The notes beneath the pieces were generated by a model. It was given only the letters and a program-made list of their open reading frames with translations, was not told the origin of the DNA and made no database searches. The translations under genes were made by a program, and so were the position numbers. A stretch of 63,209 bases of DNA, filler included, from Rozella allomycis CSF55 (lineage: Eukaryota): the NCBI GenBank assembly GCA_000442015.1. It is 6 parts of 6 records of this genome, joined end to end, with 100 filler letters (N's around TTAATTAATTAA, not from the genome) between each part and the next. Parts side by side here need not be neighbours in the genome. Positions count along the whole stretch, not along the records: positions 52,013 to 62,099 come from KE560861.1; 5 more parts are not named here. The stretch is one strand, 5' to 3'. How positions within the stretch are numbered: the first letter of the stretch is position 1; every line of letters begins with the position of its first letter. Shown here piece by piece: positions 51,913 through 62,199 of the stretch.

Positions 51913-52012
51913 NNNNNNNNNNNNNNNNNNNNNNNNNNNNNNNNNNNNNNNNNNNNTTAATTAATTAANNNNNNNNNNNNNNNNNNNNNNNNNNNNNNNN
52001 NNNNNNNNNNNN
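51913..52012. other. Artificial contig linker
   Basis: N44-TTAATTAATTAA-N44. Confidence 0.97.
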
Positions 52013-54009
52013 ATACTAGAAAATAAAGTTGCCTTGACGTATTTTCAGGAATTCATGAAGTCGAGTAAGCAACAGCAAGACATTCTAGCAATTTACTTTG
52101 ATTGTGATTCATTTTTGAGCCAAAAAGAGATAACAAGGGAAGAATGTGAAAATCTGATAAAGAAATTAGAATTGAGGGCAGAGACCCTCGCGATTGTGCT
52201 TGATGCTATTCCAAGATTGAAATATTTTTTGAATGAAAAGAAAGAAGAGGAATTTAAAATGCAAGTTGCGACAATCAAACAATTTGTATTCCAATCAATG
52301 GAAGATGAAGACGCTCAATCATTTTTTGCTACAGATTTGTATTATCGATATTTAAGTAATCCTGAAGAACAATTAAATTCTTATCATGTTAATGTTAAAA
52401 CATCGCCATCTGTCACAGATCTACGTTCTGAATCTGAATTTGTAGACGAGGATTTAGTTGAAGCTGTTGAAAACAAGTTGGGTGAAATTATTCAGTTGAA
52501 ACCACATGAAAATCATTTTGATAATTTAAGCGATAGAGAATCTTCTACAGAAAACGACGACTTGAAGCAGAGAAAGGAATTACACGAATTAGAAGAGAAC
52601 TTGGATAATTTAAAGCAAGAAATGAGCGTTGTTAAAACCTTAATAGAAAGAGCTCAAAGAAGGAAAAGTGTAAAGGAAGAAAACGTTCTGAGGAAAAGCT
52701 TAACTTCTCTAGAGAGCGAATATAGAATATTGTCGTTCCAAAAAGATCAATTAGCCATTGAAGAATCTGAAAATACCTTTACCCCTGTATGAAATTTACA
52801 ATTATATTGACAAGGGTTGTTTTGATGTATTTATCCCGTCGTTTTCAATTACAAAAGATGAAGTAGGGAAGGAATATGCTCTCTTTACTATTGAAATTAA
52901 TAAATTAGATAAACAAGACCCTTCAAAAATAGTTGGAGGGTGGCTTATCTTTAGGCGTTATTCTGAATTCTTTGCATTGGATCAGAAACTTCGATTATTA
53001 TTCCCAATTGTTTCTGACTATAATCTTCCTCAAAAATCTGTAAAGAATTTGTTCAAATTACCCGTTTCTTTTGTGGAAGAAAGAAGAATGAACTTGGAGC
53101 TTTACTTGAAAGTATTCATTAAAGAGTGTTTATTTAGAAATTATCATCAAATTTGGAAATCTGCACAAGTTCCGAATTCAAGTCATTTATGTGCAACCAA
53201 CAATTAAGGGATGAAATTCAAATTCCAGAAAAAAGAGCTTCATTGAAAAATTCATTAAAATCCATTATAAGTACTTTGAAGAGAAAATCTGATGCTTCTT
53301 CAATCCACGAGACGGAAAGTATTCCTCAGAGTCCAGGTAGGATACAACGGATTCTATCAAGGGCTGCATCTCCAATTTCTTCTGACCATTCGTCAAAGAT
53401 AATGGAAGCTGTAAATGATGAAATGAGTGATCAACCATTGCGCCCAAACTACTCCCTTCCTGTAACCCCTGCTGTGGCAGAACCTATTTGCGATTTGTTT
53501 ATCGAATTATTTGAACTGAAAGATAAAAATAGATGGCTAAGAAGAAACGCCGTTACAATAATTCTTCAACAGTTCCTGGGAGGGACAATTGAAAGAAAAG
53601 TCATTGAAAACATAAAATATTTAACAGATGATGAAATGCTTAGTTTCTATTTGACTCAATTTTCTGAATCATTTTGGCCAAATGGGCATTTATATGAAAC
53701 GCACAATAAAAGAACTGAAGAACAAATGCAGAAAACTAAGCTTGAAGTTCAACACAAACTCATCTCCCTATTTCCAGGTAATTCTGCGTTTTAATTATTT
53801 TTGAAATTCTAGGCGGAATGGTCGGTAGACATAATGCAAAGAAAGGAGCGGCCAGACTTTTTGATATCTTTCAATCTGAAGATTTAAACAAACATATTCT
53901 ATATTCGTTACTGGACGACATTTTGTTGACTTTGTTTCCTGAAATAGACTGGAATCTATTAAAGAAATCGCTAATTTCCCCCTGTGTTGGAAAGAGGGCC
54001 TCTATTAGA
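52013..54009 (+). CDS. C-terminal half (RGS-PX-PXC) of Mdm1/SNX13/14/25-type sorting nexin
   Basis: LTYFQEFM (RGS), GWLIFRRYSEFFALDQKL..EERRMNLELYL (PX), ELFELKDKNRWLRR..QQFLGGTIERK..FWPNG..LNKHILY (Nexin_C). Confidence 0.85.
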
Positions 54010-54010
54010 N

Positions 54011-55070
54011 TACGTATTGATATCAGACACTTTCTTTCCATTTATTAAATCATCTTTGCGATGGTTTTGAATTTGAATTCTCCACTTTCTTATTTCAGCC
54101 ACCAAGTGATTCCGTATTCTTTTAGCATCTTCAACGCTACTACATTGTTTTATCACCTTTAAAAATTCATCAAAAGTCTATTATATTGATTTAAAGAGAA
54201 TTACTTTAGGCTTTCTGCCTGGATTGCTTGAAGTTGTGAACATTGGTCTTTCCAGTGCTTCCCTCAACTTCTTAACCATCCTTAAATCCTCAATTGCTCG
54301 GGTTGCCTTTAAAAACTTTAATCGTTATTTACGAATGTATCAATTGTTTGATTAATATAGTCTGGATCTGATAGTGTCTTAATAATCGGATGCAAAATGT
54401 TGCACACCAACACTTCTCTTAAAATAGTACTCACTATATCACTGCCATTTTCTAAATCAGGAAGGATGAATGGTAGAATCGATTTAACAACTGCCCTTAA
54501 ATAGTTCTTTTCAGTATCTTCATCGTGTCTAACGGCCTGATGAAGTTCTCCATTTTTATATCTTTGGAGAAGAATAAATTCAAATTGATTAATGCTCTTT
54601 GGTTGTACTACTGTCACTGTTCGCGAGGCCGCTTCCGCCTTTTTATATTCTTGTAAATGTTCCATAGCCAAAGGTACAACTTGGGCAGCTACAAAGTTCA
54701 CAAGATCAAACTTTTCGATTCTTAATTTCAATTGATACAAAGAAAGCAACATGCCTCTATACGTCCTTATAGATATCGAAGTATTTTTTGGTGACACAAT
54801 GGATGTCCATGAATCAATAAAATCTCTCTTTATATAAGATAATATTCTAGTAAAACTAACTTGAATGCTTGGTTGAATAAACCATTCAATCATAGGTAGT
54901 GGAGGCTCATTTCGAAGCTCCTGTGAAACAAATTGTAAGCCGGGATCAAAAAGCGCTGTCGTCGGAGGCCGATATTTTTTGTTATTTTCTGTTTTAGTTT
55001 CTGCTTGTATCAGCACCTTGTAAACCAGGAATCCAATAAACAAACCAAAGAGTATTAAATCGCCAGCCAT
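54011..55070 (-). CDS. N-terminal half (TM-PXA) of Mdm1/SNX14-type sorting nexin
   Basis: TM leader; YIKRDFIDSW, EKNYLRAVVKSILPFILP, LREVLVCNILHPIIKTLSDPDYINQ (PXA); IKQCSSVEDAKRIRN. Runs into N54010. Confidence 0.85.
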
Positions 55071-58656: not shown

Positions 58657-59519
58657 TTATTCGCTTTCTGCAGATAATAATATGTACATACGCCTGTCGA
58701 GGAGGTACCTGTCTATTAGCAAACTCCTAATTCTATTCTTTTCTAGCGTGCTCATCATAATCTTGTTGTAATTTTCGCTTTCATCATAGTAAAATGATGG
58801 GTATTTCTTAATAAGAGTGTTTTTGTCCTGTTGTATAGTAGTCTCAAATTCTACTTTGTTTTCAATTACCATTGGTTTAATAGCTTCGTGATTCGTTATG
58901 ATTTCGGATTTACTATCTGTAGCTAAGGTGTCATCACTCTTATCATTCAATTCACTAAATGCACTTTTTCCTAATTTATGGGGCTGTACGACGCCAGCAT
59001 CAATACTTTTAGGTGCGCTTGATACTTGATTGCTCTCCTCTGACGTTAAGCGATAATTGCCGCTGACTTTTGATAAGGTTACAGTACATTTGAAGGAGAC
59101 TACTTTGGTCCTTAGTCCCCTCTCTTTCCATAAAGTAATGGATTCTTCGCTTAACATCTCTTAAAAATAATGATAAGTACATTACCTTATTAGCAAATTC
59201 AGCAAGCCTAATCTCCCAAACTTGAAGTACGTCATCCCCAAGAAGAATCATGATCCACAGCTTGGAGTTTTGTATTTCTTTGTATATTTGATCATTTAAT
59301 GGGAATTTACATGATTTTCCATGAATTCCATCCTTTTGATTAATGTTTAGTGAAACTTAACCATGAATACTGATCTTGTTTACCAGATGGAAACAGTTCG
59401 GTGAAATTGATTACCAGCTTTAAATTGTCGGCCACGTTACTTATTTCTTTAATTAAAAGCTTCAATTCCCATCTAAGAATTCATTTGTCACACAATTCTT
59501 ACATACTTTCTTCGTGCAT
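58657..59519 (-). CDS. Hypothetical protein with N-terminal C2-like (DUF4497/MAP10-like) domain; 3' end uncertain
   Basis: Spliced reading FTELFPSVSL..IHGKSCKFPL..IQNSKLWIMILL resembles the F.DFP...GKSCLF pattern. Three micro-introns in the 5' part. Confidence 0.4.
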
Positions 59520-59627
59520 ACTTTAACGGGGAAGATTAAACCAAAACATTGCAACAATTCTAAAAATTTAAAACTCCTTGGTTTGATAACATATAAAATT
59601 AATTATTAACTCTTCTATTTATTTTTA

Positions 59628-60557
59628 CTATGGTTCAATTATTTGGAAAGGTACGCTGTATTTTTGAAATATTTTCTTTGATCGTATTACAAATTCTACG
59701 CTGTAGTAAATACAAACTCGTTGTGTATCAATGGATTTAATCCAATTCTTTGGTAAATTTGCGAAAAATCTGGTCTGATTAGTTAAATTTGATCCAATCT
59801 TTGGCATTTTAGATTTGACATTCAATTTTCTTTTAAGACATTCTTTTTCGGAATTTGGAGCATTATTTTTAATAAGGATATATTGTACGAGCTTAATTTT
59901 TTGAATTTTGATGGATTCTGTAGGGAAAAAGTTACTAGCTGTAAGGACAAATGAAATTTGCGAGCCCGGCAAGAGCTTTCGTTTTTCAAAATTCATTGAT
60001 ACAATAACGGGGAAATCTTGACTGCATATTCTTTTGGGTGAAATATTTTCTACATTTAAAATTTCAAAGTTTCTATTGTCATGTTCGCCAATTTTTGCGT
60101 CAACTTTCTTGCAGATATTACGCCAAAGAAAGCCTGCTCTTTCGACGTATAATTTGAAGTATACTTTTCTTTTGATAGATATTATCTTCATCGGAGAAAA
60201 CGTTCGGCCACAAAATGGAAGAACAAAAATTGAAGAAGATCTATTCACAGCCATTTTCTGGAATGTGGGCGAGCATCTCCAACCAGTGGTATCAATTGTC
60301 AAAGTCCCACTGTACTTTCCTGGAAGAGTGCTTCCCTGTGTTATACAGCCAGAAAAATCAAAATATGCTATTGTGTTTTTATGTTTTGTTTCGTCTTTTT
60401 TGGTTTTATGCAAGAATGTAATATTTTCTTTCTCGACCAAGCTCAGGGAGATTCTTTTAACTTTCTTTAATTTCTTTTTTACAAATATCGAAAAAGGAAT
60501 GTTGTAAACTTGTTCTGGAGCGAAAATAGGCATATATGAGAATTCCAAGCTCGCCAT
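59628..60557 (-). CDS. Arrestin-fold protein (intronless, basic)
   Basis: LPGKY..SPTF..VYFKLYVERAG (N-lobe); KRKLLPGSQISFVLTASN..IKLVQYI..IYYSVEF (C-lobe). Confidence 0.6.
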   Translation of the reverse strand: MASLEFSYMPIFAPEQVYNIPFSIFVKKKLKKVKRISLSLVEKENITFLHKTKKDETKHKNTIAYFDFSGCITQGSTLPGKYSGTLTIDTTGWRCSPTFQKMAVNRSSSIFVLPFCGRTFSPMKIISIKRKVYFKLYVERAGFLWRNICKKVDAKIGEHDNRNFEILNVENISPKRICSQDFPVIVSMNFEKRKLLPGSQISFVLTASNFFPTESIKIQKIKLVQYILIKNNAPNSEKECLKRKLNVKSKMPKIGSNLTNQTRFFANLPKNWIKSIDTQRVCIYYSVEFVIRSKKIFQKYSVPFQIIEP

Positions 60558-60725
60558 ATAAAAAATAGTGGCTGAGCAGAATAACTTTATTTTTAGTGGC
60601 GCGTATTTGGAGATATTTCGGGAAAGAAGTATTTCTGACTCTTGAAAATCTGACAGTGCAAATGAATAAAGTTGTCTAGAATATTTTTAATTCGAATTAT
60701 TTTGACTCGCTGTGGCTTATAATTT

Positions 60726-62099
60726 ATGTTTTTTGAAAGGAGTTTGGAATACCTTGGACTGCTCAAAAAGTTTGGAAAAACTACCGAAGTTGCCCAAGTC
60801 CTGTATTCCTTATCTAAAGACATGAAATTTTGTGACGACACAATCATTCTTGATTCATCATTTAACCCACCAACAATTTCACATTTCAATATGATCAAAG
60901 CAGCTATAGAGACCCAGACTAATCAAAATTTTAAAATCATGCTTGTTCATTCCTTGATTAACGCTGACAAGCCAAAAACTGCATTGATTGATACCTCCCG
61001 AAGGCTTTCATTGGTGGAAGCATTTGCACACGATATTAGCAAATACGCTTCTGAGGCTAAAATAAATGTATCAATCCAAATTGTGGCATGCAAAAAGGCA
61101 AAATTTGTCGAAAAATTTGATATTCCCTTGTTTAAGAATTCTACATGGGTTATTGGGGATGATACTGTAGAAAGAATCTTCAATTCAAAATACTATGCTG
61201 ATTTCCAAGAGTTTATTTTAAATATTACAAGCCAAATGGAGCAAAACCGTGTTAAAGTGTTTGTTATTGAAAGATCTTCATGCAATCCGCAAATACCAAG
61301 TTGTTTGAAAGAAAAATTCACTTTTATAGATTCCTGGGATGTACAGGCGAACAGCACAGTTTCATCTACACTAGTTCGCTCATTAACAGATGCTAGTAAA
61401 GTTGAGATGCTAATGCCTGAAGCAACATTTCAAGCTTACCGAAGATATCTATGCAGTTTTATGGAAATCGCTTTTAATGCAAGTGACCAGATGTATAAAG
61501 GGGTTTATCACGGTAAGCAGCAGCACCAAATAGATCTTGACAATGTTATTGAAAGGGCACTTGTTACAGGAGTTAATAAGATATTATTTACAGCTACGGA
61601 CGTTAACGATGTTATGGAGGGCATTGAATATCTTGAAAAGAATGATGCCAAAGGATATGCAAGAATCACGGCTGGGGTGCATCCTACCAACTGTAATGAA
61701 TTCATCGATTGTGAAGATTATTGTGCACAAAAGTTGAAAGAATTTTTTAGTCATCCATTAGTTGCTGCTGTTGGTGAATTTGGATTAGGTAAAGAAAGTT
61801 GATCAAAGTGAGGAAGACTACGATAGATTGCAGTTTTGTGACAAAGATGTCCAAATAAAATATTTCAAATTACAACTTGATCTGTTGCCCGAAGGAAATG
61901 AAAAGCCTCTATTTTTGCATTGCCGAAATGCATCTAAAGATTTACTAGCCATTCTTTCATCTTATAAAGCAAAATACAAATCAGGGGTCATTCATTCATT
62001 TGATGGTACATTGGAAGATGCATTAGAATTTATTAAACTTGGCTTCTTCATAGGGATCAATGGATGCTCTTTAAAGACTGAAGACAATTTGAAAGTCGT
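60726..62099 (+). CDS. Fusion of Pof1-like NMN adenylyltransferase (HxGH-type NTase) and TatD DNase, 3' truncated by gap
   Basis: ILDSSFNPPTISH, INADK, KFVEK, IGDDTVERIFNSKYY, SSTLVR. In the same frame: EIAFNASDQMYKGVYHGKQQH, AGVHP, VGEFGLDYDR (28-nt intron 61789-61816), PLFLHCR, GVIHSF, GINGCSLKT. Confidence 0.85.
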
Positions 62100-62199
62100 N
62101 NNNNNNNNNNNNNNNNNNNNNNNNNNNNNNNNNNNNNNNNNNNTTAATTAATTAANNNNNNNNNNNNNNNNNNNNNNNNNNNNNNNNNNNNNNNNNNNN
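62100..62199. other. Artificial contig linker
   Basis: N44-TTAATTAATTAA-N44. Confidence 0.97.

What the first reader, a model, noticed from the sequence alone, without database searches (positions are those of the whole stretch)
60726..62099. Pof1-type NMN adenylyltransferase fused in frame to TatD nuclease
Seen: a complete HxGH-superfamily nucleotidyltransferase (DSSFNPPT.SH ... SSTLVR) runs through ~25 residues straight into a TatD/TATDN1 barrel. There is no stop, intron or N between them. Known: yeast Pof1 (NMNAT activity) and TatD are separate genes; I do not know of this fusion. Inference: either physical coupling of NAD+ synthesis to DNA/AP-site processing, or fusion of neighbours through genome compaction. 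An ATG just inside the TatD start (FMEIAF) could still allow separate translation.
Basis: partly seen in the sequence, partly recalled or inferred. Interest (0 to 1): 0.7.

Follow-up and report, generated by a model that had tools for sequence, protein, structure and literature searches.

The report
NMNAT–TatD fused reading frame in Rozella
In the parasitic fungus Rozella allomycis, an NAD-making enzyme and a DNA-cutting enzyme share one unbroken reading frame with no spacer, an arrangement found nowhere else and half missing from the public gene models.

Summary
One frame runs from 60726 to 61788. It skips a 28-nt GT..AG intron (61789-61816) and continues to 62099, where the contig ends. That gives 448 codons and no stop.

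Residues 1-245 are a complete NMN/NaMN adenylyltransferase, supported by Pfam PF01467, the motifs T50xxH53 and S213xxxxR218, and a confident NMNAT-like fold. It keeps 24 of 24 columns that are invariant in 19 homologues. Residues 245 onward are a TATDN1-type TatD, which keeps 25 of 26 columns invariant in 17 homologues. There is no linker.

DNA contigs from three runs in three studies bridge the junction without a stop or indel.

The window's TatD part is letter-for-letter an NCBI protein of Rozella allomycis CSF55. Both public models start at M246, and the NMNAT half is in no protein set searched.

No protein with both domains appeared among 1.84 billion representatives. None of 80 metagenome NMNAT loci has a TatD nearby.

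Best reading: one gene and one bifunctional polypeptide, produced by fusion of two genes. Functional coupling is not shown. No RNA evidence could be obtained, and the gene's 3' end is missing. Interest is moderate.

The parts
60558..60725 (.). 168-nt intergenic region shared with the divergent upstream gene (59628-60557, minus strand). Presumed promoter region of the fused gene.
   Evidence: ORF list. An in-frame TAA at 60720-60722 lies just before the ATG. GC drops to 0.26-0.28 here. Runs X1 and X4 carry a 19-nt insertion behind 60659.
60726..61460 (+). NMN/NaMN adenylyltransferase half (aa 1-245), Pof1-like. Absent from both public gene models.
   Evidence: Pfam PF01467, E 2.5e-8. It keeps 24 of 24 columns invariant among 19 homologues. 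A family profile hits solved NaMNAT/NMNAT chains at E 1.3e-12. The AF2 model has pLDDT 86.9 and pTM 0.85, and its top Foldseek hits are NaMN/NMN adenylyltransferases.
60873..60884 (+). T50-I-S-H53, the T/HxxH ATP-binding motif
   Evidence: Sequence. H53 is invariant in alignment A1. The motif definition comes from passages of PMC13191266.
61362..61379 (+). S213-S-T-L-V-R218, the SxxxxR motif
   Evidence: Sequence. S213, S214 and R218 are invariant in A1. The motif definition comes from passages of PMC13191266.
61458..61463 (+). Junction codons F245-M246. M246 is the start codon of both public TatD models. F245 and M246 align with the conserved hydrophobic pair that precedes the D of xFIDIGxN in TatD homologues.
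   Evidence: No difference or indel is listed in 61300-61500 in runs X1, X2 and X4.
61458..61788 (+). TatD (TATDN1-type) barrel, first coding part
   Evidence: Pfam PF01026. It is 100% identical to P0158 (EPZ35165.1) over this part. tblastn hits from full-length TatD homologues begin at 61440-61458.
61789..61816 (+). 28-nt GT..AG intron inside the TatD domain
   Evidence: The frame shifts by +1 between the two TatD ORFs. The join reproduces GEFGLDYDRLQF of P0158. DNA contigs carry the intron: no joints are listed.
61817..62099 (+). TatD second coding part, cut off by the contig end
   Evidence: Pfam PF01026 profile positions 103-180 of 253, E 3.3e-17. The contig ends at 62099. A contig of run X4 runs 1,747 nt further.
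62100..62199 (.). Artificial linker between contigs (N44-TTAATTAATTAA-N44). Not biology.
   Evidence: the same linker occurs at five places in the window.

Best explanation
This is one Rozella allomycis gene whose mRNA is translated into a single two-domain polypeptide. The N-terminal domain is a Pof1-like NMN/NaMN adenylyltransferase (ATP + NMN gives NAD+ + PPi). The C-terminal domain is a TATDN1-type TatD metal-dependent nuclease.

Shown: the open frame, the completeness and conservation of both domains over the part present, and the absence of any spacer or stop.

Inferred: the NMNAT reading frame is clearly maintained and has no stop codon of its own. Any ribosome that makes the NMNAT must therefore read on into TatD, so the fusion protein is the obligate product of NMNAT expression.

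Also inferred: the arrangement arose when two formerly separate genes lost everything between the last NMNAT codon and the TatD start. The two active sites most likely work independently, so the fusion gives only co-expression and co-localisation. The public gene models that start at M246 are 5'-truncated.
For: (1) The spliced frame has 448 codons and 0 stops. The chance of 245 open codons at this base composition is about 1e-8.

(2) The NMNAT half scores above the Pfam cut-off. It keeps 24 of 24 columns invariant among 19 homologues and 3 of 3 columns that are at least 90% conserved, including T/HxxH and SxxxxR. It folds confidently (pLDDT 86.9, pTM 0.85) into a fold whose best PDB matches are NaMN/NMN adenylyltransferases.

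(3) The TatD part keeps 25 of 26 columns invariant among 17 homologues.

(4) There is no spacer. NMNAT homologues project to end at query residues 246-253; this covers the 6 of 19 whose alignment reaches the C-terminal part. TatD homology begins at 243-246.

(5) All 17 free-standing TatD homologues have at least 4 residues before the conserved D. A protein starting at M246 would have 1. F245, encoded upstream of that ATG, sits where the homologues have their conserved F/L.

(6) DNA contigs from 3 runs in 3 studies bridge the junction. No difference is listed in 61300-61500 and no indel anywhere in 60726-62099. None of the 13 listed coding differences makes a stop.

(7) GC at the junction is coding-like (0.36-0.43), against 0.26-0.28 in the true intergenic region upstream.
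Against: I obtained no RNA or peptide evidence of any kind.

Two independent public annotations model only TatD from M246. These appear to be automatic predictions.

The fusion was found in one species only, so conservation cannot vouch for it.

The 3' end of the gene is missing, so the full product cannot be seen.

Haplotype differences are too few to measure selection. The NMNAT half has 3 synonymous and 2 non-synonymous; the TatD part has 2 synonymous and 6 non-synonymous. Table 3 also left 6 further differences unlisted.

The only homologue-invariant TatD column that is not kept (D to E at E247) lies right at the junction.
Confidence: 0.7

Rival explanations
1. Two products from one locus. 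The fusion protein is made, and TatD is also made alone from an internal transcription start or by initiation at M246, as the public models assume.
For: An ATG sits at the start of TatD homology. Both NCBI models use it. The -3..-1 context (TTT) is the same at 60726 and at 61461, so neither start is favoured by context.
Against: M246 aligns with an internal hydrophobic position of the first TatD strand (the I of FIDIG). A start there would leave 1 residue before the conserved acidic residue, against at least 4 in 17 of 17 homologues. No AT-rich, intergenic-like stretch precedes it.
Confidence: 0.2
2. Only TatD is expressed. The NMNAT frame is a decaying relic that now serves as leader or promoter sequence.
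For: The public models omit it. It lacks a segment of about 35 residues that most homologues carry.
Against: A relic would not stay open for 245 codons at 35% GC (about 1e-8). It would not keep 24 of 24 homologue-invariant columns, nor fold at pLDDT 86.9. Three haplotype sources keep the frame open.
Confidence: 0.05
3. The NMNAT is ended separately by a non-standard route, such as an unrecognised splice near the junction or a stop codon created by polyadenylation. Two separate proteins would then result from an apparently fused frame.
For: The idea rests only on recall that some eukaryotes complete stop codons by polyadenylation.
Against: Homology to both families is continuous in one frame up to and across the junction. 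The one GT..AG candidate nearby (61493-61513) encodes the conserved stretch YHGKQQHQID.
Confidence: 0.03
4. Assembly or sequencing artefact: a lost stop or indel, or a chimeric join.
For: The locus lies near a contig end, and the window is a concatenation of contigs.
Against: Contigs from runs X1 (60914-62099), X2 (61319-62099) and X4 (whole stretch) all bridge 61460 with no indel and no listed difference in 61300-61500. The three runs come from three studies. X1 or X2 may be the data the window was assembled from. X4 carries another organism label and year.
Confidence: 0.02

Closest known systems
Saccharomyces cerevisiae Pof1 (YCL047C) and its fungal homologues: free-standing NMN adenylyltransferases of about 230-290 aa
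   Same: Same Pfam family (PF01467). Same T/HxxH and SxxxxR ATP-binding motifs, as described for Pof1 in passages of PMC13191266. It shares the LDSSFNPP(T/H)xxH, NADK, G(x)DT and KYY blocks with 19 mostly fungal-type homologues at 23-30% identity. The N-terminus is full length.
   Different: It has no stop codon of its own and runs directly into a TatD domain. It lacks a segment of about 35 residues that most homologues have. Orthology to yeast Pof1 itself was not tested, because no named Pof1 sequence was at hand.
TATDN1 / E. coli TatD-type nucleases (Pfam PF01026): free-standing proteins of about 300 aa
   Same: 36-45% identical to 17 eukaryote-type homologues. It keeps 25 of 26 homologue-invariant columns, including the GExGLD, LFLHxR and HSF blocks. 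The intron-joined sequence equals the NCBI 'TatD DNase domain-containing 1' model of R. allomycis.
   Different: It is preceded in frame by an NMNAT domain rather than by its own short N-terminus. It has E where all 17 homologues have the first conserved D. The last ~95 residues could not be seen.
Solved NaMN/NMN adenylyltransferases (e.g. 8aih, 9rpk, 3e27, human NMNAT1 1kqn and NMNAT3 5z9r)
   Same: The family profile matches them at E 1.3e-12 to 1e-8. The predicted fold matches at Foldseek E 1.8e-6, probability 1.00, target-normalised TM 0.58-0.67.
   Different: Only 14-19% identity in the structural alignments. The Rozella domain has an extra N-terminal helix and strands (residues 2-29) and a long C-terminal helix.
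Other fused gene models seen among the hits: P0066 (Pof1-like domain + D123, 585 aa), P0117 (gag-like + TatD), P0011 (177-aa unassigned N-terminus + TatD)
   Same: They show that each of the two families is sometimes found joined to another domain in gene predictions.
   Different: None joins NMNAT to TatD. Their reality was not examined.

Membership tests
NMN/NaMN adenylyltransferase (Pfam PF01467 CTP_transf_like; Pof1-like branch) | Significant match to the family profile | tested here: met
   34.6 bits against a cut-off of 21, E 2.5e-8, aa 43-218 covering profile positions 3-131 of 133. The A1 profile matches solved NaMNAT/NMNAT chains at E 1.3e-12.
NMN/NaMN adenylyltransferase (Pfam PF01467 CTP_transf_like; Pof1-like branch) | T/HxxH and SxxxxR ATP-binding motifs | tested here: met
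   T50-I-S-H53 and S213-S-T-L-V-R218. Motif definitions come from passages of PMC13191266.
NMN/NaMN adenylyltransferase (Pfam PF01467 CTP_transf_like; Pof1-like branch) | Nucleotide-binding alpha/beta fold of the solved NMNATs | tested here: met
   The AF2 model has pLDDT 86.9 and pTM 0.85. The top Foldseek hits are NaMN/NMN adenylyltransferases, followed by PPAT.
NMN/NaMN adenylyltransferase (Pfam PF01467 CTP_transf_like; Pof1-like branch) | Orthology to yeast Pof1 specifically (reciprocal best match or tree) | not tested
   No named Pof1 sequence was returned by any search. The closest named hits are 'hypothetical protein' of Lipomyces and Podosphaera, and the JGI name 'nicotinamide-nucleotide adenylyltransferase'. 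'Pof1-type' is recalled.
NMN/NaMN adenylyltransferase (Pfam PF01467 CTP_transf_like; Pof1-like branch) | NMN adenylyltransferase activity | not testable with these tools
   Needs an enzyme assay.
TatD / TATDN1 nuclease (Pfam PF01026) | Significant match to the family profile | tested here: met
   37.3 bits (profile positions 13-94) and 63.1 bits (profile positions 103-180), against a cut-off of 27.
TatD / TATDN1 nuclease (Pfam PF01026) | Conserved residues of the barrel in the part present | tested here: met
   25 of 26 columns invariant among 17 homologues are kept. The exception is D to E at E247.
TatD / TATDN1 nuclease (Pfam PF01026) | Complete barrel, including the C-terminal conserved E..D, P..C and R columns | not testable with these tools
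   The contig ends at 62099. Profile positions 181-253 and about 95 residues are missing.
TatD / TATDN1 nuclease (Pfam PF01026) | Free-standing protein with its own short N-terminus | tested here: not met
   The frame is open for 245 codons upstream. 17 of 17 homologues have at least 4 residues before the conserved D, whereas the M246 model has 1.

The most novel reading that the evidence does not exclude
The fusion is adaptive. It tethers an NAD+ synthase to a DNA end or AP-site nuclease, so that NAD+ is made, or NMN and ATP consumed, exactly where damaged or ingested DNA is processed. This would be a hard-wired version of the recruitment of a nuclear NAD+ synthase to chromatin. Alternatively it links nucleic-acid breakdown to nucleotide and NAD salvage in an endoparasite. 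A recent yeast study ties loss of Pof1 to NR production and to resistance to the DNA-alkylating agent MMS (abstract and passages of PMC13191266). That gives the idea a loose foothold.
Probability: 0.1. Interest if true: 0.7.

Novelty: new variant of a known kind. Interest (0 to 1): 0.4.

Why it matters
If the long protein is made, it is a domain architecture (NMNAT + TatD) that I could not find among 1.84 billion representative proteins. It would be a Rosetta-stone hint of a link between NAD+ metabolism and nucleic-acid processing that could be tested in yeast, where the two genes are separate.

There is also a practical point. The public proteomes of Rozella allomycis lack this NMNAT domain altogether. 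Rozella is the reference outgroup for how Microsporidia lost NAD+ and nucleotide synthesis. PMC5923384 states from genome analysis that Rozella, unlike Microsporidia, can make NAD+ (passages read; its Supplementary Fig. 7 was not seen). A missed NMNAT therefore bears on such metabolic reconstructions.

If the fusion is only an accident of gene fusion, it is an ordinary lineage-specific event.

Tried and rejected
RNA evidence: no RNA holder was listed for 60600-62099. The one RNA run laid (X8, a metatranscriptome with the same species label) gave 0 contigs on the stretch. This says nothing about expression.

Whole genome: none is held for this window. I could not look for a second NMNAT or TatD copy, for the missing 3' end, or for typical gene spacing genome-wide. 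Within the window, tblastn found no other copy of either domain.

Close relatives in metagenomes: 106 pattern matches, none confirmed.

ESM Atlas: no usable hit with the 354-aa frame. With the NMNAT half, only CTP_transf_like clusters appeared.

Apparent overlaps: some TatD hits (P0034, P0046, P0062, P0045) aligned 25-48 residues into the NMNAT C-terminus. On inspection their N-termini are Ser/Thr-rich, low-complexity leaders with no NMNAT motif, so I rejected them as fusions.

Junction geometry: the AF2 model of residues 1-270 models the first TatD residues as a continuation of the last helix at pLDDT 44-57. That is uninformative without the barrel. I did not fold the two-domain protein or run a complex prediction, because the TatD barrel is truncated.

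Earlier scan notes: none for this genome.

Literature: a full-text search for 'TatD' + 'adenylyltransferase' + 'fusion' gave 6 papers, none about such a fusion judging by title and abstract start in the listing. 'Rozella allomycis' + 'transcriptome' + 'gene fusion' (at least 2 of the 3 terms) gave nothing specific in the 15 papers listed.

Full report
**What is there.** Under the standard code, a 358-codon ORF runs from the ATG at 60726 to a stop at 61800-61802. The ATG is directly preceded by an in-frame TAA at 60720-60722.

Pfam finds two domains in it. CTP_transf_like (PF01467) covers aa 43-218, and TatD_DNase (PF01026) covers aa 268-354. Both score above the curated cut-offs. The TatD match stops at profile position 94. 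It resumes at position 103 in the +1 frame at 61828-62097.

The two TatD pieces join across a 28-nt GT..AG intron at 61789-61816, which turns ...GEFGL|GKES* into ...GEFGLDYDRLQFC.... The spliced frame has 448 codons and no stop. It is cut at 62099.

**Where the window comes from.** The window is a chain of contigs joined by N44-TTAATTAATTAA-N44 linkers. The finding lies at the 3' end of a 10,087-nt contig (52013-62099).

The spliced TatD part is letter-for-letter the NCBI protein EPZ35165.1, 'TatD family domain-containing protein, partial [Rozella allomycis CSF55]', which sits on a 10,087-base contig. A second model, RKP17729.1, differs at a few residues.

Both models start at M246 (MEIAFN...), use the same intron, and end at the same contig end. 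Full-length TatD homologues of 306-312 aa align only to their residues 211-215, so about 95 residues are missing.

**Is the DNA right?** I laid Logan contigs of three DNA runs from three studies (X1, X2, X4) on 59500-62099. All three bridge the junction at 61460. No difference is listed between 61300 and 61500, and no indel is listed inside 60726-62099.

The only indels listed lie at 59522-59527, 59862 and behind 60659. None of the 13 listed coding differences creates a stop. They split 3 synonymous to 2 non-synonymous in the NMNAT half, and 2 to 6 in the TatD part. Six further differences were not shown by the tool.

The differences at 61599, 61614/61616 and 61744 account for the three substitutions that separate the window from the RKP model over the aligned ORF part. 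No contig skips the intron, so these runs behave as DNA. An assembly artefact is therefore very unlikely. X1 or X2 may be the window's own source data.

**The NMNAT half is complete and conserved.** I aligned it with 19 homologues, which are 23-30% identical. It keeps 24 of 24 columns that are invariant among those homologues. It also keeps 3 of 3 columns that are at least 90% conserved.

These include T50xxH53 and S213xxxxR218. A 2026 paper on Pof1 names these two motifs as the conserved ATP-binding motifs of NMNATs (passages of PMC13191266).

A profile of the alignment hits solved NaMN/NMN adenylyltransferases at E 1.3e-12. AlphaFold2 with this alignment gives pLDDT 86.9 and pTM 0.85. Foldseek then ranks NaMN/NMN adenylyltransferases first, at E 1.8e-6 and probability 1.00.

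One difference stands out. The domain lacks a segment of about 35 residues that most homologues carry after residue ~190. By base composition, 245 open codons have a chance of about 1e-8. This is a maintained coding sequence, not a relic.

**The TatD part.** It is 36-45% identical to 17 homologues. It keeps 25 of 26 columns that are invariant among them. The exception is E247, where all 17 have D.

**The junction has no linker.** For the 6 of 19 NMNAT homologues whose local alignment reaches the C-terminal part, the homologue's end projects onto query residues 246-253. TatD homologues begin to align at query 243-246, often from their own residues 1-6.

The residues F245-M246-E247-I-A-F-N251 line up with the consensus F-I-D-I-G-x-N. 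So M246 occupies an internal hydrophobic position of the first strand, and F245, encoded upstream of that ATG, already belongs to TatD homology.

All 17 free-standing homologues have at least 4 residues before the conserved D. The annotated model has 1. GC content across the junction is 0.36-0.43, against 0.26-0.28 in the real intergenic region at 60615-60749.

**Is the architecture known?** A phmmer search of the 358-aa frame against 1.84 billion representative proteins gave 782 hits at E up to 0.001. Only one scored below 1e-30, and it was the Rozella TatD model itself.

Among the 150 listed hits, none matches both halves. I scanned 30 of those 150 with Pfam: the long ones, the ones with N-terminal extensions, and the two-stretch ones. 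None has both domains. A true fusion would score on both domains and should rank near the top.

The word-index searches with the 358-aa frame (lengths 196-627) and with the NMNAT half (lengths 134-429) returned 9 and 7 proteins. There was no fusion and no Rozella NMNAT among them. The NMNAT half is therefore unannotated in the protein sets searched. JGI's own fungal catalogue may not be fully included in those sets.

A scan of metagenome contigs with the NMNAT alignment returned 80 loci totalling 465,638 nt. Of these, 62 have at least 1 kb downstream of the match and 34 have at least 4 kb. tblastn with six TatD proteins found no TatD in any of them. So neither the fusion nor the adjacency is general.

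A full-text search for TatD + adenylyltransferase + fusion found 6 papers, none on this subject by their listing.

**How it most likely works.** The NMNAT frame is under evident constraint and has no stop of its own, so its translation must continue into TatD. I therefore read the locus as one gene for a bifunctional NMNAT-TatD polypeptide, and the public models as 5'-truncated (confidence 0.7).

The origin is inferred. Everything between the last NMNAT codon and the TatD start was lost when two genes fused. The neighbours (sorting-nexin PXA and Nexin_C pieces, a kinase fragment, unassigned ORFs) give no functional hint.

TatD may additionally be made alone from M246 (0.2). The other rivals are a dead NMNAT relic (0.05), non-standard termination (0.03) and an artefact (0.02).

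**What remains open.** I obtained no RNA or peptide evidence. No RNA run holds the stretch, and this says nothing about expression. The 3' end of the gene is missing, although a contig of run X4 runs 1,747 nt beyond 62099.

Functional coupling of NAD+ synthesis to DNA processing is possible but unsupported (about 0.1). The only loose link in print that I saw is that loss of Pof1 raises NR production, and NR levels correlate with MMS resistance in yeast (abstract and passages of PMC13191266).

PMC5923384 states from genome analysis that R. allomycis, unlike Microsporidia, can make NAD+ (passages read). Its Supplementary Fig. 7, which would show which NMNAT was counted, was not seen.

**Verdict.** This is a new domain combination of two well-known enzyme families, seen in one species and not yet shown at the RNA or protein level. 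It also corrects the public gene models. Interest 0.4.

Noticed in passing
window 5501-5600, 28594-28693, 41309-41408, 51913-52012, 62100-62199: The window is not one natural molecule. It is several contigs joined by an artificial N44-TTAATTAATTAA-N44 linker, so features that seem to span these points are not real. Single N positions are also scattered through the contigs.
   Followed up: yes
window 60659 (between the divergent genes at 60557 and 60726): Contigs of runs X1 and X4 carry a 19-nt insertion here relative to the window. It is a length polymorphism in the presumed shared promoter region.
   Followed up: no
window 61461-61466 (M246-E247): The only homologue-invariant TatD column not kept is the first conserved D, which is E here, directly at the fusion junction. 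Whether this matters for metal binding or activity is unknown.
   Followed up: partly
window about 61290-61300 (after residue ~190 of the ORF): The NMNAT half lacks a segment of about 35 residues (in homologues, roughly ...QxxYVxxIRxGxIxGVPxxW...) that most of the 19 aligned homologues carry. The predicted fold is still confident.
   Followed up: partly
proteins P0066, P0117, P0011 (hits): Other unusual gene models turned up among the hits: a Pof1-like domain fused to D123 (585 aa), a retrotransposon gag-like region ahead of TatD (479 aa), and a TatD with a 177-aa N-terminal region with no Pfam match (506 aa). They may be real fusions or merged predictions.
   Followed up: no
window 59628-60557 (-): The divergent upstream neighbour is a 309-aa ORF with no Pfam match at E up to 0.01. 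Further upstream are PXA (54318-55070, minus strand) and Nexin_C (53189-53794, plus strand) pieces on opposite strands, which is odd for what is usually one sorting-nexin gene.
   Followed up: no
window 62070-62099: Both public assemblies' TatD models end at the same residue (...NLKVV), and short 130-nt contigs in runs X1 and X2 overlap this point. Something here, such as a repeat or heterozygosity, breaks assemblies. Run X4's contig passes through it.
   Followed up: partly
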